In this document: piece by piece, positions 7,951-40,275 of the stretch
Layout of the letters: each line of letters starts with the position of its first letter
Numbering within the stretch: the first letter of the stretch is position 1
IMG/VR virus record: IMGVR_UViG_3300036855_000036
Coordinates: 1 to 54,334 of that record
Source: a virus
Taxonomy: Duplodnaviria > Caudoviricetes
Strand: one strand, 5' to 3'
DNA: 54,334 nt
The notes under the pieces: generated by a model
Told to the model about the DNA's origin: nothing
What the model saw: the letters and a program-made list of their open reading frames with translations, nothing else
The model's database searches: none
Made by a program: the position numbers and the translations under genes

Positions 7951-8718
7951 ATGAAAGAGTGCTCTCGCGACGGCTGCGGCCGGCCAGTGGCGGCGCGGAA
8001 CATGTGCGATGCGCATTACCGGGCGTGGCTGAAGGAACGGCCGCCCGGCCCCCGTCGGACCGGGGTTCCGGTAGCCGAGTGCTCGTACGAGGGCTGCACG
8101 CGCCCGGCGCGGGCCGGGACGGCGATCTGCAAGCGGCACTACACCGCCGAGTGGCATGCCCGTCAGGGGCCGTGCTCGGTCGAGGGCTGCGAGCGGCAGG
8201 CCAACGCGGCTCACCTGTGCGAGATGCATTACAAGCGGAAGCAGCGCGGCCTGGCGGACTGGGACAAGCTGATCGCCCCGCGCATGAAGCGGGACGGCGA
8301 CTGCGCCGTAGATGGATGCGAGCGGCCCGTGTACGCCAGGGGCCACTGCACGATGCACCACCAGCGCGTCGCAGTCCTGGGCCATGTGGACGCGGGGCCG
8401 GTCGGACGGCTCAAGGCCGCTTCAGGGCAGGGCAGCCTGGACCCTAGCGGCTACCGGGTTATCACGGTCGGCGGCCAGCGCTACCTGGAGCACCGATGGG
8501 TGATGGAGCAGCAGCTCGGCCGCCCGCTGTGGCCGGATGAGAGCGTGCACCACAAGAACGGCGCGCGCGCTGACAACCGGCCGGAGAACCTCGAGCTGTG
8601 GGCTAAAGCGCAGCCAGCCGGGCAGCGTGTGGCCGACATCATGGCGTTCTACGTGGAGCGTTACCCGGAACTGGCGGAGCAGGTATTGCGCAAGGTGAAG
8701 CGCAGGAAGGCAGGCTGA
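7951..8718 (+). CDS. Free-standing HNH endonuclease with four N-terminal C3H Zn-finger repeats
   Basis: EHRWVME, VHHKNGARADNRPENLELW; 4x CxxxGCxRxxxAxxxCxxH. Confidence 0.9.
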   Translation: MKECSRDGCGRPVAARNMCDAHYRAWLKERPPGPRRTGVPVAECSYEGCTRPARAGTAICKRHYTAEWHARQGPCSVEGCERQANAAHLCEMHYKRKQRGLADWDKLIAPRMKRDGDCAVDGCERPVYARGHCTMHHQRVAVLGHVDAGPVGRLKAASGQGSLDPSGYRVITVGGQRYLEHRWVMEQQLGRPLWPDESVHHKNGARADNRPENLELWAKAQPAGQRVADIMAFYVERYPELAEQVLRKVKRRKAG

Positions 8719-34742: not shown

Positions 34743-34779
34743 CATCGGAGCGTGGTCACAGCAGGTAATGGTTGCGCTC

Positions 34780-36201
34780 ATGCGCCCCGCGAGTAACAGC
34801 GAGCCCGTCCAGGCGGCGATCTACTGCCGGATCAGCCTGGCGGTACTGAAAGACACGACGAAGGTCGACGAGCAGGAAGCGCAGTGCCGCGAGGTGGCCC
34901 GGCGCCTCGGCTGGGAGGTGACCGCCGTCTTCAAGGACAACTCCCGCTCGGCGTGGCAGCGCAACCGCAAGCGCGACGGGTGGGACGCGATGCTGGAAGG
35001 GCTGCGCGTCGGACGGTTCGGGGCCATCGTTTCCTACTGGGGCGACCGGATCGTCCGCCAGCCGCGCGACCTGGAGGACCTGCTCGACCTTCGTGAGGGC
35101 CGCAAGATCAGCGTGGCGTCGGTCATGGGCCGGTACGACTTCAACAACAAGGACCACCGGATGATGATGCGGTGGGAGGTGGGCCGGGCCTGCAACGAGT
35201 CGGACACCATCTCCGAGCGCGTCATCAACCATCATGAGCTGCGCCGCGCGAGGGGACTTGCGCGCCCCGGCGGCCGCGGCGGCCGGGCGTTCGGCTTCGA
35301 GACGGACGGCATGACGCACGTCGAGGCCGAGTGCGCGGTCATCCGCGAGATGGCCGTGCGCGTGCTGCGCGGCGAGACAGTGGGGTCTATCTCCCGCGAC
35401 GTGTCGGCCCGCGGGTGGCTGACCCCGGCCGGGAACGAGTTCGGGTACGGCACGGTGCGCAAGATGCTCGCCCGGCCGCGGTACGCGGGCCTGATGCCCG
35501 ACGGCGAGAGCAAGGCGGCCTGGGCGTCCGTCCTCGAGCGCGACACCTGGGAGCGCGTCCGCCTGCTGCTCGACGCCAAGGCCGAGCAGTTCGGGTACGC
35601 GACCAACGCGCGCCGCTGGCTGCTGTCGGGAATCGCCGTGTGCGGCGCGGTCTCCGGCGGGGAAGTCTGCTGCACGCCGCTGATCATCAAGCCGAGCAAG
35701 GGGCGCGGCCGCCAGGAGTACCAGCAGGGGTACGCCTGCCCGCGCAAGGGGTGCGGGAAGGTGTACCGCTCCGCACCGCACCTGGACGCCTACGTCGGTG
35801 CCCGCGTGGTCGGCCTGCTGAATAACCCGCTCAACCCCGCGGCGCAGGTCCCGAACGCCCCGGAGCCGGCCGCCGAGTGGGCGGACCTGTCGGCCGAGCG
35901 GGCGGAGACGGAGAGAATTGCCCGGGACTACCGCGCTTCGGCCGGCATGCTGAGCATCCTGGCGGCGCGGCTCGACAGCATCGACGCCCGCATGGCGCAG
36001 CTGCGCGAGCGGGAGACGAGTGATTCGCGGTCCCGCCTGCTTGAGCAGTACCGGGGCATCACCCGCGACCAGTGGGAGAACGAGCTCCCGCTTGACGTCC
36101 GCCGCGCCCTGGTCGCCGCGTGCTTCACCGTGACGGTGCTGCCCGCCTCCGGCCGCGGCCCCGGCTTCCGGGTGCAGGACGTCCGCCTGGACCCGGCGTA
36201 G
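34780..36201 (+). CDS. int: Large serine recombinase (integrase)
   Basis: IYCRIS catalytic Ser, DNSRSA, DRIVR, recombinase domain, Zn ribbon, coiled coil. Confidence 0.93.
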
Positions 36202-36353
36202 GCGGCCAATCCCCGCTTAGGCGGGAATTCGCCCGTTCCTCTGCGCTTGCGCTGCGTGAGCCGGTTGAGACACTGTGTTTGCTTCCGGGCGTTTCCGCAG
36301 GCCAGCTGCATTCGGTGTTGCGTGCCGTGAAATCGCATGTGCAATCAGCTTGC

Positions 36354-36371
36354 GTGCGGTGGCCACCGCAC
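36354..36371. promoter_or_regulatory. Perfect 18-bp palindrome, probable repressor operator
   Basis: GTGCGGTGGCCACCGCAC; core matches CGGTAGCCACCG at 37180-37191. Confidence 0.55.
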
Positions 36372-36491
36372 AGAAGATGACAGCAGTGAATGTTTCTGAA
36401 GGAAACCTTCACCCTGACCCCCTAAGGTCATGTTTCGCCGCAGCCCGCCTGGACCCCGCGGGCGTAACCATGCTCCGACTGGGAGGAACAC

Positions 36492-37085
36492 GTGCAGCGG
36501 GGACTGCTCCTGATGATTACGGCCGTGATAGCGGCCGCCGGCGTGGCCGCGGTGGCGGCCTGGCGGCACCAGAGACAGGCGGCGGCGCGTGCCGCCGCGG
36601 CGCGGGAGCGGGAGGAAGCGCTGATCCTCACCGTGGAGCAGCTCAGTGCCGCGGGCGACGAGCGGCACGGACTGCGCGCGGTCTTAGCCCGCGGCCCGGC
36701 TCTCGCGCGGCCCGTTGGGGCCGCGCGAGACGGGCGGTTCCCCGCGCAGCGCCGCCTCGATCGCCGCCTCGACCGCCGCCGCCCGCTCCGGGGGCAGGAT
36801 CTCGCGGACGTGCTCGCGCAGCCCCGCCGGCACGATGTCCGGCTCAGGCTCAGTCCCGTCGCTGAGACTGACGCCGAGGACCTCTTCGAGCTTGCCGAGC
36901 TTGCGGGACGGGTAGTGCGTCCCCGCTTCCCATTTCTGCACGCTGTTGACGTGAACGCCGACGCGCTCGGCCAGTTCCTGCTGCTCCCAGCCAAGGACCT
37001 GGCGCCGCTTGCGGATGACGGCGCCGACACGCTTGTTGCGGGCGCCGTCGTCTCCGGTGCTCATGCCTCCGATAGTCGTTGCTAG
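36492..37085 (+). CDS. Small membrane protein reading through antisense to the repressor
   Basis: GGGAGG SD and TM segment; only the first ~64 codons look protein-like. Confidence 0.35.
   Translation: MQRGLLLMITAVIAAAGVAAVAAWRHQRQAAARAAAAREREEALILTVEQLSAAGDERHGLRAVLARGPALARPVGAARDGRFPAQRRLDRRLDRRRPLRGQDLADVLAQPRRHDVRLRLSPVAETDAEDLFELAELAGRVVRPRFPFLHAVDVNADALGQFLLLPAKDLAPLADDGADTLVAGAVVSGAHASDSRC
36684..37064 (-). CDS. XRE-family immunity repressor (cI-like)
   Basis: IRKRRQVLGWEQQELAERVGVHVNSVQKWEAG. Confidence 0.88.
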   Translation of the reverse strand: MSTGDDGARNKRVGAVIRKRRQVLGWEQQELAERVGVHVNSVQKWEAGTHYPSRKLGKLEEVLGVSLSDGTEPEPDIVPAGLREHVREILPPERAAAVEAAIEAALRGEPPVSRGPNGPRESRAAG

Positions 37086-37173
37086 CTCCGCGTAAGTCAA
37101 GTTAAGTCTGCGCAGGTCAGTGCGGTGCGGTGCGGTAGGTAACGCTGTTTCCAGATGTATTTAGCGGTGGGTC

Positions 37174-37202
37174 TTGCACCGGTAGCCACCGTTAAGTAGA
37201 GT
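37174..37202 (+). promoter_or_regulatory. Early rightward promoter, leaderless cro mRNA
   Basis: TTGCAC-17-TAGAGT, ATG 6 nt downstream. Confidence 0.7.
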
Positions 37203-37208
37203 TCACGC

Positions 37209-37466
37209 ATGCAACGCAGAACCAACGGGGCTTCGGTCCGCGCCATCCGCGAGGCGCTCGGCATCACGATGACCTCGCTCGCGGCCCGCTGCAAGGTCAG
37301 CAAGCCGTTCATGTCGATGGTCGAAACCGGCACCAACCAGCCGTCGCCGAAGGTCGCCCGCGTCATCGCCGACGAGCTCGGCGTGCCGCTGGACGCCATC
37401 ACCTACCCGTGGGCAGGCGACGTGGAATCCGCTGACGACGAGCTCGCGGAAGCGAAGGCGTCCTGA
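37209..37466 (+). CDS. Cro-like HTH protein
   Basis: VRAIREALGIT, SMVETGTNQPS, IADELGVPLDAI; divergent from repressor. Confidence 0.85.
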   Translation: MQRRTNGASVRAIREALGITMTSLAARCKVSKPFMSMVETGTNQPSPKVARVIADELGVPLDAITYPWAGDVESADDELAEAKAS

Positions 37467-37621
37467 TGGCCGTCCTGCGCACCCTCGACGAGATCTGGGC
37501 GCAGGGTGCCGCGGACGGCGCGGGAGACCCGCCGCTCACCCAGGCGCAGGCCGACCTCGTCGCCGCGATCCTCGCGCCCGTCCGCCGCCAGCTCGCCGCA
37601 CGCGAGCCGCAGGCCGCCTAA
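37466..37621 (+). CDS. Hypothetical protein (51 aa)
   Basis: TGATG coupling; PPLTQAQADLVAAIL. Confidence 0.6.
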   Translation: MAVLRTLDEIWAQGAADGAGDPPLTQAQADLVAAILAPVRRQLAAREPQAA

Positions 37622-37719
37622 AAGCGCGTCAGCCCCCGCGTGCACCACGGGGGCCGACACCCCGGCGGGAGCGATCAGCTGGCGCCGGTTCAACGACAAG
37701 CATAACAAGGAGCGATCAA

Positions 37720-38130
37720 ATGAAAGACCCGACCAAGGCAGACCTGGCCACCGCAGTCGCGAGGCTTACCGAGGAGAACGCGGGCCTGCGCGAGCTGCTC
37801 GCCGCGGTCAGCGCCTACGCGGAACTGCCGCGTCCCGCCAGCTCCGACAACCGCAGCTACGGGTACGAGCTGGAGCGCCGCGCCGACGCGATCGCGATCT
37901 GGGCTAACGGCGACCGGGAGGACATGGCCCCCGACGTCTACGTGCTCGTCATCCAGGACCGGGCGAAGCACCTCCGCGAGGAGGCCGCCAGGCCGGTGCG
38001 GTACGAGGTGCGCGCCGAGCCGGAGCCGTGCCCCTGCGGCGCGGAGATCCCGGCCAGCGAATGGCGCGAAGGCCACCGTACCTGCGGCAGCGAGACCTGC
38101 GCCGAGACTGCCGCGAGCGTGACCGCATGA
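37720..38130 (+). CDS. Hypothetical protein
   Basis: AAGGAG SD. Confidence 0.7.
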   Translation: MKDPTKADLATAVARLTEENAGLRELLAAVSAYAELPRPASSDNRSYGYELERRADAIAIWANGDREDMAPDVYVLVIQDRAKHLREEAARPVRYEVRAEPEPCPCGAEIPASEWREGHRTCGSETCAETAASVTA

Positions 38131-38771
38131 ACGGCCGCCGCCCCGAGGCTGAGCCGCTGCTGACGCCGGCCGAGGTCGCCACGATGTTCAGAGTCGAGCG
38201 CACCTCGCCGACGTTCGTTGAGCGTGTGTTCGCCAAGGTCGACGCGTCGGGCGACTGCTGGGAATGGACTGCCGCGAATATCGATGGCTACGGCGCCGTC
38301 GGGCGCGGCAGCCGCGAGGCGGGCACCATGCAGGCGCACCGCGCCGTGTGGGAGCTGCTCGTCGGCCCGATAGAGGACGGCCTGCAGCTCGACCACCTGT
38401 GCCGCAACCACGCGTGCGTCAACCCTGATCACCTGGAGCCGGTCACGGACGAGGAGAACAAGCGGCGCGGCTACAGCATCGCGGTCTTGCACAGCCTGCG
38501 CGACACCTGCGGCTTCGGCCACCCCAAGGACGGCATCACCCGGCGCAAGGACGGCACGTCCCACCGCTACTGCAAGACCTGTGCTCGGCTGAAGGCCAGC
38601 GCGAGGTACGTCCCCAAGGGACCGCGCACGCACTGCAAGCACCGCCACGAGTTCACCCCCGAGAACACCTACACCGATGGCCGCGGGTGCCGGCAGTGCA
38701 AGGCATGCAAGATCGGCCGGCAGCGCGCGGCGCGCGCCGTGGCCCGCGCTGAGATGGGGAAGGCTGCCTGA
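38127..38771 (+). CDS. HNH homing endonuclease fused to the BldC N-terminus
   Basis: Begins EAEPLLTPAEVATMFRV, then CWEW, AHRAVW, DHLCRNHACVNPDHLEPVT..EN and C-terminal THCKHRHEFTPENT. Confidence 0.9.
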   Translation: MNGRRPEAEPLLTPAEVATMFRVERTSPTFVERVFAKVDASGDCWEWTAANIDGYGAVGRGSREAGTMQAHRAVWELLVGPIEDGLQLDHLCRNHACVNPDHLEPVTDEENKRRGYSIAVLHSLRDTCGFGHPKDGITRRKDGTSHRYCKTCARLKASARYVPKGPRTHCKHRHEFTPENTYTDGRGCRQCKACKIGRQRAARAVARAEMGKAA

Positions 38772-38974
38772 TGAACCGGGAACCAGAGTTCGAAAATCTG
38801 CTTACACCTGCTCAGGTAGCCGCCTGTTTCAAAGTTGATCCGAAGACTGTCACCCGCTGGGCGAAGGCCGGCAAGCTGACGTCGATTAAGACCCTTGGGG
38901 GCCACCGGCGTTACAGGGAGGCCGAGGTCCGCTCCCTGCTCGCGGGCATCCCCTGGACGGGCGGCGCGTCATGA
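38771..38974 (+). CDS. bldC: BldC-family MerR-like HTH regulator
   Basis: VDPKTVTRWAKAGKLTSIKTLGGHRRYREAEVRSLLAGIP, near-identical to Streptomyces BldC as recalled. Confidence 0.9.
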   Translation: MNREPEFENLLTPAQVAACFKVDPKTVTRWAKAGKLTSIKTLGGHRRYREAEVRSLLAGIPWTGGAS

Positions 38975-39276
38975 CCGCCTCCCAGATGCCCCCGAAGGTC
39001 GTCCTCGACGCCGAGACGGACCAGGCGCTCGCGTTCGCCCGCGACCACCGCCTCAGCCACGGCAGCCTCGCGACCATCCTGGCCGAGGGAATAGCCGACC
39101 AGGTCCGCGAGCAGTTCGGGCCCGGGAACGGCCGCATCGTCATGGCCGTGGCGCAGGCGATCAACGGCGTCGAGAAGGCCATGCGCGAGGAGTACGCCAT
39201 GCCCATGAGCCCCGGCCAGCTGATCGTCATCGCCGCGCTCGCCGCCGAGCAGCTTGAGCGGGAGGCACGGCCATGA
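38971..39276 (+). CDS. Hypothetical protein
   Basis: ATGA-coupled chain. Confidence 0.65.
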   Translation: MTASQMPPKVVLDAETDQALAFARDHRLSHGSLATILAEGIADQVREQFGPGNGRIVMAVAQAINGVEKAMREEYAMPMSPGQLIVIAALAAEQLEREARP

Positions 39277-39485
39277 CCGCCTGCTGGGCTGACCCGCTCA
39301 GCCGCAAAGAGCGCGCCGTCCTGGCCGCCAAGCTCACAAGAGCCGCCCTCCTGCTTTTCGCCGCCGGGAGCGTCGTGCGCCGACAGCACGAGGACCACCT
39401 TGCGCGTTCGCTGAACAACGCCGGAGCCGACCTCCAAGACCTGCACCTCGACGTGACCGAGCGGGCGGAGGTTGCGGCGTCATGA
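39273..39485 (+). CDS. Hypothetical protein
   Basis: ATGA-coupled chain. Confidence 0.6.
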   Translation: MTACWADPLSRKERAVLAAKLTRAALLLFAAGSVVRRQHEDHLARSLNNAGADLQDLHLDVTERAEVAAS

Positions 39486-39862
39486 CCGACCTGTACCCGC
39501 GCCACGCCCACAGCGTGGTCCCCGGCGAGCGCCAGCTGTCCGTCCGGGAACTGTTCTTCCGCTGGCTCATGCGGCGAGCCGGGCGGAAGGAGGCCGCCCC
39601 TGCTGCTGCACCCCGTACGGCAGGGGCGGTCAGCCCGCTGCTCTCCGACGCTGAGCCCGTGATGGGCAACGACATGATCGCCAGCGTCCGCGGCCAGTGG
39701 GACGCGTGGCACGCCGAGGACGTGGCCCTCACCGGTCACCCCGCGACCGCGCCAGCAGGCTTCCCCGCCCTCGGCCCGGAGCACGACGCGGCGGCCGTTA
39801 ACGGGCCGCTGCCCCGGCGGGTCCCCGGCGCCACCATCCGCGAGCACGGGAGCTGGACATGA
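39482..39862 (+). CDS. Hypothetical protein
   Basis: ATGA-coupled chain. Confidence 0.6.
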   Translation: MTDLYPRHAHSVVPGERQLSVRELFFRWLMRRAGRKEAAPAAAPRTAGAVSPLLSDAEPVMGNDMIASVRGQWDAWHAEDVALTGHPATAPAGFPALGPEHDAAAVNGPLPRRVPGATIREHGSWT

Positions 39863-40275
39863 GCGCGCCGGGTGTCACCACAGTCCGCCCGGTGCCGGAG
39901 TGGCACGACCGGGCGCTGTGCGCGCAGACAGACCCGGAGGCGTTCTTCCCGGAGAAGGGCGGCAGCATCCGGGCGGCCAAGCGAGTCTGCCAGGCATGCG
40001 AGCTTCGCACCGAGTGCCTTGAGCACGCGATCGAGAACGACGAGCAGCACGGCATCTGGGGCGGCTTGTCGGTCAATGAGCGGCTCCGCGTGACGGCCGT
40101 ACGGCCTGCCGTCTCGCGTCCGCGGCCAAGTCAGCCCCCTGCCGCCATCGTGCGCGAGGCGATGCTTTCGGCGCCCGCTGCCCCCAGCCCCGAGCCCGCC
40201 CGCCCGGAGCGGTGCGAGGACTGCGGCTACCTGAAGACATCGCCAGGCCACAAGGTCACCTGCGAGGAAGCGTGA
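39859..40275 (+). CDS. whiB: WhiB-family Fe-S transcription factor
   Basis: ALCAQTDPEAFFPEKGGS..AKRVC..C...ECLE.A....HGIWGGLS..ER. Confidence 0.93.
   Translation: MSAPGVTTVRPVPEWHDRALCAQTDPEAFFPEKGGSIRAAKRVCQACELRTECLEHAIENDEQHGIWGGLSVNERLRVTAVRPAVSRPRPSQPPAAIVREAMLSAPAAPSPEPARPERCEDCGYLKTSPGHKVTCEEA

What the first reader, a model, noticed from the sequence alone, without database searches (positions are those of the whole stretch)
38127..38974. HNH element inserted into bldC: captures its N-terminus and supplies a recoded replacement 5' end
Seen: the HNH ORF starts with 23 GC-rich codons of a canonical BldC N-terminus (MNGRRPEAEPLLTPAEVATMFRV) and switches to HNH sequence at about 38197. 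Directly after its stop, a full bldC restarts with a divergent AT-rich 5' part (MNREPEFENLLTPAQVAACFKVD; GAA AAT CTG CTT ACA CCT GCT..TGT TTC AAA GTT GAT) and then returns toward GC-rich codons. Inference: a non-splicing homing element that borrows the host gene's translation start and repairs the gene with a cleavage-resistant duplicate fragment, achieving intron-like neutrality without splicing.
Basis: partly seen in the sequence, partly recalled or inferred. Interest (0 to 1): 0.82.

Follow-up and report, generated by a model that had tools for sequence, protein, structure and literature searches.

The report
Nuclease gene rebuilt into phage bldC
A selfish DNA-cutting (HNH) gene sits inside a soil phage's copy of the regulator gene bldC, is read from the old bldC start, and brings a differently spelled new front end that keeps bldC whole without any splicing.

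Summary
The HNH ORF (38127-38771, 214 aa) begins with 24 codons of a canonical, GC-rich bldC 5' end. A complete 67-aa bldC (38771-38974) follows, and its first 23 codons are a divergent copy with GC3 0.43 against 0.90 for the genome.

The same layout occurs in two other phage contigs, L005 and L070. At least 16 of the 120 listed HNH relatives start with a BldC N-terminus that ends at the same bldC position. A syntenic relative, L109, has an uninterrupted bldC and no HNH. Uninterrupted bldC contigs from the same soils bridge exactly across the 641-645 nt insert. No intron or intein signal was found.

My best reading (0.7) is a non-splicing homing cassette made of an endonuclease plus a replacement 5' end. 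It mirrors the yeast WHO elements and the fungal mitochondrial mORF "gene hybrids", which replace 3' ends. Cleavage, resistance of the replacement and mobility are all inferred, not shown. No isogenic empty site was found, and window versus L005 looks like vertical descent.

I rate it a new variant of a known kind. My literature searches found no phage description. Earlier unchecked notes of this scan report the same design in other phages with other target genes.

The parts
37720..38130 (+). Upstream early gene (136 aa, no Pfam family). Its stop overlaps the HNH/old bldC start as ATGA.
   Evidence: The homologue in L005 is 75% identical in amino acids and ends with a GTGA overlap. In the HNH-less relative L109, the upstream gene's stop overlaps the start of an uninterrupted bldC in the same way.
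38127..38198 (+). Captured native bldC 5' end (codons 1-24, GC3 0.91). It is now the in-frame N-terminus of the HNH protein.
   Evidence: It is 79-83% identical in amino acids to uninterrupted phage and chromosomal BldC N-termini. Nucleotide identity to 80 chromosomal alleles is 0.69-0.81. Soil bldC contigs align up to 38195/38197 and then jump to 38837-38843.
38199..38771 (+). HNH endonuclease proper, with its stop codon. It comprises an N-terminal helix, an HNH_3 His-Me finger (protein residues 70-113) and two C-terminal zinc-ribbon-like repeats.
   Evidence: Pfam HNH_3, E 4e-13. In 76 relatives D89, H90 and N111 are invariant, and N99 and H102 are nearly invariant. The AlphaFold2 model has pLDDT 91.6. 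The best solved-structure match is I-HmuI (1u3e, probability 0.99, E 2e-3).
38756..38763 (+). Shine-Dalgarno-like GGGGAAGG inside the last HNH codons, 7 nt before the bldC ATG.
   Evidence: Read from the sequence. L005 has GAGGAAGG at the same place.
38771..38839 (+). Replacement bldC 5' end (codons 1-23), divergent and low in GC3 (10/23).
   Evidence: It shares a 20-nt exact run with the replacement piece of L005. It is the fastest-diverging segment between the window and L005 (0.68 nucleotide identity, against 0.81-0.95 for the other segments). It reads Q where 117 of 120 listed BldC homologues read E.
38840..38974 (+). Native-like bldC 3' part (codons 24-67, GC3 0.89) with its stop, which overlaps the next gene's start as ATGA.
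   Evidence: The 35 residues after the D codon are 89-94% identical to chromosomal BldC.
38971..39276 (+). Downstream early gene (101 aa). It serves as the synteny anchor.
   Evidence: It is 90% identical in amino acids in L005 and L109.

Best explanation
This is a non-splicing homing-endonuclease cassette lodged in a temperate actinophage's bldC. The cassette (about 38199-38839) is an HNH (His-Me finger) endonuclease gene followed by a replacement copy of bldC codons 1-23.

It sits directly after codon 24 of the original bldC. As a result, the original start and first 24 codons now initiate the nuclease, and the cassette's own SD, ATG and divergent 5' piece restart a complete 67-aa BldC.

Shown here: the anatomy, its recurrence, the sharp compositional boundary, and the absence of splicing signals.

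Inferred:
- The enzyme recognises the conserved bldC sequence across codon 24 in uninterrupted alleles.
- Both copies in the carrier are protected because each keeps only half of that sequence.
- Break repair copies the cassette into naive bldC, using the captured 5' fragment and the 3' part as homology arms.
For: (1) Anatomy and composition: see the observation check.

(2) The low-GC3 tract ends within a codon of the point where the captured fragment ends (D codon). This is what a cassette inserted at one site predicts.

(3) All 3 DNA-level cases have the same order. In the window, L005 (HNH 83% identical) and L070 (54-57%), a bldC-like start is followed by HNH and then a full bldC with unusual 5' codons. 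The GC3 of the 14-codon core is 0.43, 0.43 and 0.57, against a mean of 0.83 in 75 uninterrupted phage alleles.

(4) At least 16 of the 120 listed HNH relatives (of 1718 with E<=1e-10) begin with a BldC-like N-terminus that stops at FRV(D/E). The HNH side of the joint differs among them: directly RTS.., or FLPVPGTS.., or a zinc-finger extension. These types are scattered on a quick HNH-core tree. The 11-row type needs 7 changes, of which at least 3 are forced by well-supported branches.

(5) In P0081 and P0090 the HNH runs straight into a full BldC.

(6) None of 158 loci holding distant HNH relatives has bldC immediately downstream.

(7) The syntenic, HNH-less L109 has an uninterrupted bldC whose ATG overlaps the upstream stop, exactly as the HNH start does in the window and L005.

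(8) Conserved HNH residues F30 and R33 lie upstream of any non-bldC start codon. The only in-frame starts before them are codons 1 and 20, both in the captured fragment. The L070 start has a GGGAGG SD.

(9) The joint lies in the most conserved 24-nt windows of 154 uninterrupted alleles (0.874 against 0.78-0.85 elsewhere).

(10) There is no Rfam match at E<=1 in 37000-40000 and no intein domain.
Against: No cleavage, resistance or transfer was observed.

No isogenic empty site was found. L109's bldC is only 49% identical. The bridging soil contigs are other organisms' bldC, with loose ends that read a chromosomal-type N-terminus.

The window and L005 differ by similar amounts in the flanks and in the cassette (0.81-0.86). 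This fits vertical descent rather than recent transfer.

The replacement piece changes 5 of 14 core residues, so it could be a foreign allele rather than a selected recoding. No donor was found: best nucleotide identity is 0.74.

The tree is a quick one, and the careful search did not finish. N-terminal types rest on database gene calls and on my own reading of them.

For 13 of the 16 BldC-type proteins I could not see the DNA downstream.

The zinc-finger N-terminus found in 26 of 76 relatives has no short stand-alone homologue. Not every N-terminal extension in this clade is therefore a captured gene start.
Confidence: 0.7

Rival explanations
1. An ordinary free-standing homing endonuclease lies upstream of bldC. 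On this view the captured fragment is only a scar of one imprecise gene-conversion event. The nuclease starts at the internal Met (codon 20) or is poorly expressed. The odd 5' end is simply a co-converted foreign allele, not selected for resistance.
For: Codon 20 is an ATG with GAGG 8 nt upstream. One relative (P0005) is called from that position. The replacement piece changes 5 of 14 core residues. Free-standing phage endonucleases are known to cut a neighbouring gene and to co-convert flanking sequence (PMC2988022, passages).
Against: The frame from the bldC start into the HNH stays open in 3 of 3 loci and in at least 16 database proteins spanning 50-84% HNH identity. Even the internal start is bldC-derived. 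The joint on the bldC side is constant while the HNH side varies. The GC3 drop ends at the same codon as the captured fragment.
Confidence: 0.18
2. bldC first duplicated in tandem. An HNH gene later replaced most of the upstream copy. No cassette ever carried a replacement 5' end.
For: The end product would look alike. Odd internal duplications at this spot do exist in database BldC proteins (P0122, P0123).
Against: A whole-gene duplicate should be uniformly diverged. Here the divergence and the low GC3 stop sharply at codon 23/24, and the 3' part is native-like (GC3 0.89). The window and L005 share the replacement piece but have different bldC 3' ends. L005's C-terminal extension resembles L109's.
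Confidence: 0.05
3. The BldC-like N-terminus is a functional module of the nuclease rather than an insertion by-product. It might, for example, contact BldC multimers or help target the enzyme.
For: It is retained in frame across diverged relatives. One relative (P0032) carries a whole HTH_17 domain in front of the HNH. The model gives residues 14-18 a short helix at pLDDT 71-81.
Against: The 24 residues cover only the tail and first helix of the HTH_17 match, which spans residues 10-58 of BldC. Close HNH relatives carry quite different N-termini or none. Zinc-ribbon-like repeats that could bind DNA lie at the C-terminus.
Confidence: 0.05
4. The arrangement is an assembly chimera joining a host or phage bldC fragment to an unrelated HNH gene.
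For: bldC-like reads are abundant in these soils (depth peaks at 38154-38267 and 38838-38951).
Against: Error-free contigs cross the left joint in three runs, and one 1224-nt contig spans the whole cassette. The same layout is present in L005 and L070.
Confidence: 0.01

Closest known systems
WHO elements at the yeast aldolase gene FBA1. Sources: Coughlan et al. 2020, PMC7282813, abstract seen; Rusche 2020, PMC7282806, whole text; Osborne et al. 2026 preprint 10.64898/2026.08.13.744650, abstract, significance statement and passages.
   Same: Both are homing elements that use neither an intron nor an intein. Both consist of an endonuclease gene plus an alternative version of part of the host gene. 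In both, the displaced native fragment is left beside the element. In both, the part of the host gene at the target site diverges fast.
   Different: WHO enzymes are LAGLIDADG/intein-like proteins with a zinc finger and sit in a eukaryotic nucleus, whereas this is an HNH enzyme in a phage. WHO replaces the 3' half and the endonuclease is a separate gene. Here the 5' end is replaced, and the displaced 5' fragment supplies the nuclease's start and N-terminus. WHO cleavage and gene conversion were demonstrated; nothing was demonstrated here.
Mobile endonuclease ORFs (mORFs) that make "gene hybrids" in fungal mitochondria: Allomyces macrogynus atp6, and Glomus atp6, atp9, cox2 and nad3. Source: Beaudet et al. 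2013, PMC3630166, passages seen. The Allomyces paper itself was not seen.
   Same: In both, an endonuclease ORF inserted in a coding gene brings a diverged duplicate of the displaced gene end. The native end stays next to it. [quoted passage not shown]
   Different: The mORF enzymes are LAGLIDADG or GIY-YIG, the setting is organellar, and the carboxy-terminal end is the part replaced. Here the enzyme is HNH, the setting is a phage, and the amino-terminal end is replaced with capture of the translational start.
Free-standing HNH and GIY-YIG homing endonucleases of T4-like phages (Mob and Seg; "intronless homing"). Source: Edgell et al. 2010 review, PMC2988022, passages seen.
   Same: Both are phage-borne endonuclease genes without an intron or intein. 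Both are expected to cut endonuclease-less alleles of a nearby gene and to spread by break repair with co-conversion.
   Different: The T4-type genes are intergenic with their own starts. Where they sit inside genes, they split the gene into two polypeptides (Aeh1 nrdA, T4 gene 60/39). The word stem "duplicat" does not occur in that review.
I-HmuI, the intron-encoded HNH homing endonuclease of Bacillus phage SPO1 (PDB 1u3e).
   Same: It is the best solved-structure match to the model. Both belong to the HNH / His-Me finger class.
   Different: The global fit is weak (TM 0.27-0.32, 24% identity). I-HmuI lives in a self-splicing intron. That it nicks one strand is taken from the review (PMC2988022).

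Membership tests
HNH (His-Me finger) homing endonucleases, Pfam HNH_3 | HNH_3 domain above Pfam's gathering score | tested here: met
   49.1 bits against a cut-off of 24.8, residues 70-113.
HNH (His-Me finger) homing endonucleases, Pfam HNH_3 | Conserved catalytic and metal-binding residues of the beta-beta-alpha-metal finger | tested here: met
   In 76 relatives D89, H90 and N111 are invariant, and N99 and H102 are nearly invariant. Which residue plays which role is recalled, not tested.
HNH (His-Me finger) homing endonucleases, Pfam HNH_3 | Fold like a solved homing endonuclease | tested here: inconclusive
   The top Foldseek hit is I-HmuI 1u3e (probability 0.99), but E is only 2e-3 and TM 0.27-0.32. 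I-PpoI comes next.
HNH (His-Me finger) homing endonucleases, Pfam HNH_3 | Site-specific cleavage of the element-free allele and super-Mendelian inheritance | not testable with these tools
   This needs an enzyme assay and mixed infections.
BldC (small MerR-like / HTH_17 developmental regulator) | Single HTH_17/MerR-type domain in a protein of about 67 aa, with close similarity to chromosomal BldC | tested here: met
   HTH_17 scores 46.7 bits against 27. The protein is 67 aa, as in 80 of 80 chromosomal loci, and the 35 residues after the D codon are 89-94% identical. Database hits at 80-83% identity are named BldC by NCBI (P0206, P0225).
Non-splicing homing elements with replacement of part of the host gene (WHO / mORF kind) | An endonuclease gene travels with a replacement copy of the displaced host-gene part, so the host gene stays whole | tested here: met
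   A full 67-aa bldC follows the HNH. The replacement piece is shared, with a 20-nt exact run, by the window and L005.
Non-splicing homing elements with replacement of part of the host gene (WHO / mORF kind) | The displaced native fragment is left beside the element | tested here: met
   The captured 24 codons are canonical in sequence and codon usage.
Non-splicing homing elements with replacement of part of the host gene (WHO / mORF kind) | Polymorphism: alleles exist both with and without the element | tested here: inconclusive
   Uninterrupted bldC is present in 75 phage loci, 80 chromosomal loci, soil contigs and the syntenic L109. None is an otherwise near-identical phage.
Non-splicing homing elements with replacement of part of the host gene (WHO / mORF kind) | The endonuclease cuts the element-free allele and the replacement allele resists | not testable with these tools
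   Only the sequence divergence at the site is seen.
WHO family proper | LAGLIDADG/intein-like endonuclease related to HO | tested here: not met
   The enzyme is HNH_3. It works like a WHO element but is not a member of that family.
Group I/II intron or intein-borne endonuclease | A ribozyme or protein-splicing domain around the endonuclease | tested here: not met
   No Rfam match at E<=1 in 37000-40000. Pfam finds only HNH_3 and zf-His_Me_endon.
T4-type free-standing homing endonuclease | Intergenic gene with its own start | tested here: not met
   It lies in frame within bldC-derived sequence, and its start overlaps the upstream gene's stop.

The most novel reading that the evidence does not exclude
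The window shows one member of a whole clade of actinophage HNH endonucleases that routinely insert in frame inside coding sequences. On this reading they take over the target's start codon and carry a spare 5' end. bldC codon 24 would be a hot spot that architecturally different HNH variants hit independently (direct-RTS, FLPVPGTS and zinc-finger types). The fast-diverging replacement piece would reflect an arms race at the target site, like that between WHO elements and FBA1. The captured fragment and the 3' part are 69-85% identical to chromosomal bldC. The same cassette might therefore also cut, or even enter, the host's master developmental regulator.
Probability: 0.3. Interest if true: 0.8.

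Novelty: new variant of a known kind. Interest (0 to 1): 0.62.

Why it matters
Homing endonucleases are thought to survive inside genes by riding in introns or inteins, or, in phages, by staying between genes or splitting the gene. A third route is to replace the displaced part of the gene. That route was recently named a separate category in yeast (WHO elements) and is known from fungal mitochondria.

This locus and its relatives suggest the same solution exists in phages of actinomycetes. It is the mirror image, acting at the 5' end, and the nuclease is additionally expressed from the host gene's own start.

It gives a compact, testable system: a 214-aa enzyme, a target of about 70 nt, and natural resistant and sensitive alleles. 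It also warns annotators that short "N-terminal domains" on HNH proteins, and odd 5' ends of neighbouring genes, can be insertion footprints. Finally, the target is a phage copy of a key developmental regulator of the host.

Tried and rejected
GenBank phages. Megablast of 37400-39600 found nothing. Blastn found only 94-147-nt matches in the HNH core of unrelated phages.

Scan with the upstream gene in viral contigs. It found no relative.

Alignment-based scans for the HNH clade. Their one use was as a negative control.

Genome-contig scan. It was dominated by the bldC-derived pattern and returned chromosomal bldC, not prophage HNH genes. I used it as the chromosomal reference set.

Search with P0081. 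It added no new HNH-bldC locus beyond L005.

Zinc-finger N-terminus of relatives (P0015 residues 1-62). No protein of 30-145 aa shares it, so I dropped the idea that every N-terminal extension is a captured gene start.

Matching contig lengths between the BldC and HNH database hits to pair neighbours. This found no pair among the 120 listed BldC hits.

Same-phage empty site in the runs. None was seen. One 943-nt skip (38021 to 38965; X4; side 25) is too short-sided to interpret.

Papers. The SegH/Hef paper (PMC1275590) is not held.

Second HNH gene at 7951-8715. It shows no captured gene start.
Full report
WHAT IS THERE

The window is a 54,334-bp IMG/VR virus record with direct terminal repeats. 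Pfam hits show it is a temperate tailed phage of a high-GC host: portal, prohead protease, capsid, tape-measure-like protein, serine integrase (34768-36198), a divergent pair of HTH_3 regulators, WhiB, a PD-(D/E)XK exonuclease, RecT and a DNA methylase.

The finding lies in the rightward early operon, just after the Cro-like gene. The ORF order is:
- an unknown 136-aa gene (37720-38130);
- the HNH ORF (38127-38771, 214 aa);
- bldC (38771-38974, 67 aa);
- an unknown 101-aa gene (38971-39276).

Each gene overlaps the next by ATGA or TGATG. Pfam gives HNH_3 (49.1 bits, cut-off 24.8) for the first protein and HTH_17/MerR for the second.

The HNH protein's first 24 residues are a BldC N-terminus. 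They are 79-83% identical to the starts of uninterrupted phage bldC genes in L003, L004 and L011. They are 83% identical to chromosomal BldC in 80 of 80 genome loci, mostly Streptosporangiales and all 67 aa long. The window's own bldC also finds 38133-38210 in a six-frame search of the record (E 5e-4).

The functional bldC has a first part unlike anything else in the phage. Codons 1-23 have GC3 10/23. By comparison, GC3 is 0.904 in 94 putative genes, 0.91 in the captured fragment and 0.89 in bldC codons 24-67. Only 0.09% of 18,957 sliding 23-codon windows are as low (that gene set was pre-filtered for GC3 >= 0.8).

In the gap-free 14-codon core, 9 residues are the same in the two copies. Six of those nine use a different codon, and every change is from G/C to A/T at the third position. 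The other five residues differ, so "divergent" describes the piece better than "recoded". The low-GC3 tract ends at the D codon (38837-38839). That is the same bldC position at which the captured fragment ends (window E24, which is D in relatives).

NOT AN ARTEFACT AND NOT SPLICED

Logan contigs without a single difference cross the left joint in three runs: X1 37729-38952, which spans the whole cassette; X2 37918-38326; and X3 38154-38315. X1 may be the source sample. Rfam finds nothing at E <= 1 in 37000-40000 on either strand. Pfam finds no intein-type domain.

WHAT UNINTERRUPTED bldC LOOKS LIKE

Of the 80 viral loci fetched with bldC, 77 could be aligned, and 75 of those are uninterrupted. 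In these 75 the core reads LLTPAEVA.MFRVD with GC-rich codons. Mean GC3 is 0.83 in the 5' core and 0.86 in the 3' part, so there is no systematic 5' drop. The core is on average 0.74 identical in nucleotides to the captured fragment but only 0.60 identical to the replacement piece.

The 80 chromosomal alleles give the same picture. Nucleotide identity is 0.69-0.81 to the captured fragment and 0.51-0.60 to the replacement piece.

Among the 120 listed BldC homologues (of at least 7991 with E <= 1e-8), 117 read E at the PAEV position and only the window's protein reads Q. The remaining two, missed by my pattern, also read E.

In the soil runs, bldC contigs of other organisms lie on the captured fragment up to 38195/38197. 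They then continue at 38837, 38840 or 38843, skipping 641-645 nt. Their loose ends read a chromosomal-type N-terminus on one side and the ..PKTVTRW.. continuation on the other. Relative to canonical bldC, the window therefore carries an insert of about 641 nt, consisting of the HNH core plus the second 5' end.

The joint lies within the most conserved 24-nt windows of 154 uninterrupted alleles. Mean major-allele frequency there is 0.874, against 0.78-0.85 elsewhere.

THE LAYOUT RECURS

L005 is a syntenic relative: upstream gene 75% identical in amino acids, HNH 83%, bldC 81%, downstream gene 90%. It has the same construction:
- a GTG start overlapping the upstream stop;
- a BldC-like N-terminus ending in FRVD;
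- the HNH;
- a 1-nt spacer;
- a bldC whose 5' core has GC3 0.43.

Its replacement piece shares a 20-nt exact run with the window's.

L070 is not otherwise syntenic (HNH 54-57% identical) but has the same order. It has a GGGAGG SD in front of the BldC-like start, and its bldC 5' core has GC3 0.57.

In the protein database the HNH has 1718 relatives at E <= 1e-10. Among the 120 listed, I read 16 as starting with a BldC-like N-terminus. BLASTP against the window's BldC supports 8 of these at E < 0.01, and the rest more weakly. Two more are partial (P0005, P0019). In two others, P0081 and P0090, the HNH runs into a complete BldC.

The bldC side of the joint is always at FR[VC](D/E/G). The HNH side varies: directly RTS..F, or (D)FLPVPGTS, or a zinc-finger extension (P0033, P0079). 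On a quick maximum-likelihood tree of the HNH core, these N-terminal types are interleaved with others. The 11-row direct type needs 7 changes, at least 3 of them forced by branches with SH-aLRT >= 95. The careful search did not finish.

As a control, none of 158 loci holding more distant HNH relatives has bldC immediately downstream. Three of them have a bldC-like hit elsewhere in the locus. Among the 26 loci of the first HNH scan, only L005's contig has the arrangement.

AN HNH-LESS RELATIVE

L109 shares the flanking genes: 94% for the small gene upstream, 90% for the downstream gene and 76% for the next one. It has no HNH, and it has an uninterrupted bldC-like gene whose ATG overlaps the preceding stop as ATGA. 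This is the configuration that the HNH start now occupies in the window and L005.

That bldC is only 49% identical to the window's, so L109 shows the ancestral layout but is not a true empty site. It also shares a Cys-rich C-terminal extension with L005's bldC, which the window lacks. The bldC genes are therefore mosaic downstream of the shared replacement piece.

WHERE TRANSLATION STARTS

Relatives without extensions start 5-15 residues before the conserved ..RFW.KVD helix. In the window that helix (model H30-36, pLDDT about 96; F30 and R33 invariant in 76 relatives) lies upstream of the first non-bldC start codon, a GTG at codon 34. The only in-frame starts that include the helix are codon 1, which is coupled to the upstream stop, and codon 20, which has GAGG 8 nt upstream. 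Both are bldC-derived. The nuclease therefore depends on bldC sequence for initiation. Which of the two codons is used is open.

MECHANISM

Shown: a catalytically intact-looking His-Me finger nuclease. D89, H90 and N111 are invariant. The AlphaFold2 model has pLDDT 91.6. The best solved match is the homing endonuclease I-HmuI, followed by I-PpoI, though the match is weak. The gene is embedded in frame in bldC, with a spare 5' end.

Inferred:
- The enzyme recognises the conserved sequence spanning codon 24 of intact bldC.
- In the carrier, each copy keeps only one half of that sequence: canonical left half plus HNH sequence in one copy, and diverged left half plus canonical right half in the other.
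- After a break in a naive allele, repair uses the captured 72 nt and the 135-nt 3' part as arms and copies the cassette in.

The replacement piece is the fastest-diverging segment between the window and L005. Its nucleotide identity is 0.68, against 0.81-0.86 for the upstream gene, captured fragment, HNH and bldC core, and 0.95 for the downstream gene. This fits either relaxed constraint or selection to differ at the target. The similar divergence of flanks and cassette argues that these two phages inherited the arrangement vertically.

COMPARISON WITH WHAT IS KNOWN

The design (endonuclease gene, replacement of the displaced gene part, native remnant left behind) is that of two known systems. 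The first is the yeast WHO elements at FBA1 (PMC7282813 abstract; PMC7282806 whole text; preprint 10.64898/2026.08.13.744650 abstract and passages). The second is the mitochondrial mORF "gene hybrids" in Allomyces and Glomus (PMC3630166 passages). Those replace 3' ends and use LAGLIDADG or GIY-YIG enzymes.

For phages, the T4 review describes intergenic free-standing endonucleases, and describes in-gene insertions as splitting the gene. The stem "duplicat" does not occur in it (PMC2988022).

My searches turned up no phage description of a replacement-carrying endonuclease and nothing on bldC as a target. The only paper with BldC, phage and HNH endonuclease together is unrelated, judging by its title and abstract. 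Subscription papers and the SegH/Hef paper (not held) were not seen, and supplements were not consulted.

Earlier unchecked notes of this scan describe the same design in other phages with other targets: VRR-NUC, nrdG, a portal gene, nrdB and adaptor tails. One of them says the layout is also known from T4-like phages. I could not confirm that.

VERDICT

Homing, target preference and resistance remain inferences. I rate it a new variant of a known kind, with interest 0.62.

Noticed in passing
window 7951-8715 (+): A second HNH_3 gene (255 aa) lies directly after the major capsid gene. It has four Cys-rich zinc-ribbon-like repeats in front of the HNH and its own GGGAGG SD. It shows no captured gene start and no similarity to its neighbours.
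   Followed up: partly
database proteins P0122 (79 aa) and P0123 (110 aa): Two BldC homologues carry internal duplications at the same spot as the insertion site. P0122 repeats 12 residues starting at VDPKTV. P0123 has a second, decayed copy of the N-terminal helix region before the 3' part. These may be repair scars or remnants of lost cassettes.
   Followed up: no
L109 3723-4004 and L005 1618-1887: The bldC genes of these two relatives share a Cys-rich C-terminal extension of about 28 aa that the window's bldC and chromosomal BldC lack.
   Followed up: no
database proteins P0032 and P0117: Some close HNH relatives carry a whole HTH_17 domain (P0032) or an XRE-type HTH (P0117) at the N-terminus. 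These may be insertions near the 3' end of other small regulator genes, or they may be true domain fusions.
   Followed up: no
database proteins P0003, P0006, P0022: The nearest HNH relatives of the window's enzyme include proteins whose N-terminus is not BldC-like but shares another motif (..GRRS..REFDVE..PEWLLPVP). On the quick tree P0006 is sister to the window plus L005, and P0022 groups with BldC-type P0010 and P0013. This may mark a second target gene.
   Followed up: no
L239 2202-2309: A partial BldC-like match (residues 5-40, 42% identity) lies about 190 nt upstream of a distant HNH relative.
   Followed up: no
window 34768-37463: This is the lysogeny module: a serine integrase (Resolvase plus Recombinase domains) and a divergently transcribed pair of HTH_3 regulators. 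The HNH-bldC cassette is therefore in the first rightward early operon, together with WhiB at 39859-40275.
   Followed up: partly
window 39864-40091: The conserved WhiB region shows very high summed contig depth in the soil runs, up to 605. This comes from other organisms' whiB genes, not from this phage.
   Followed up: no
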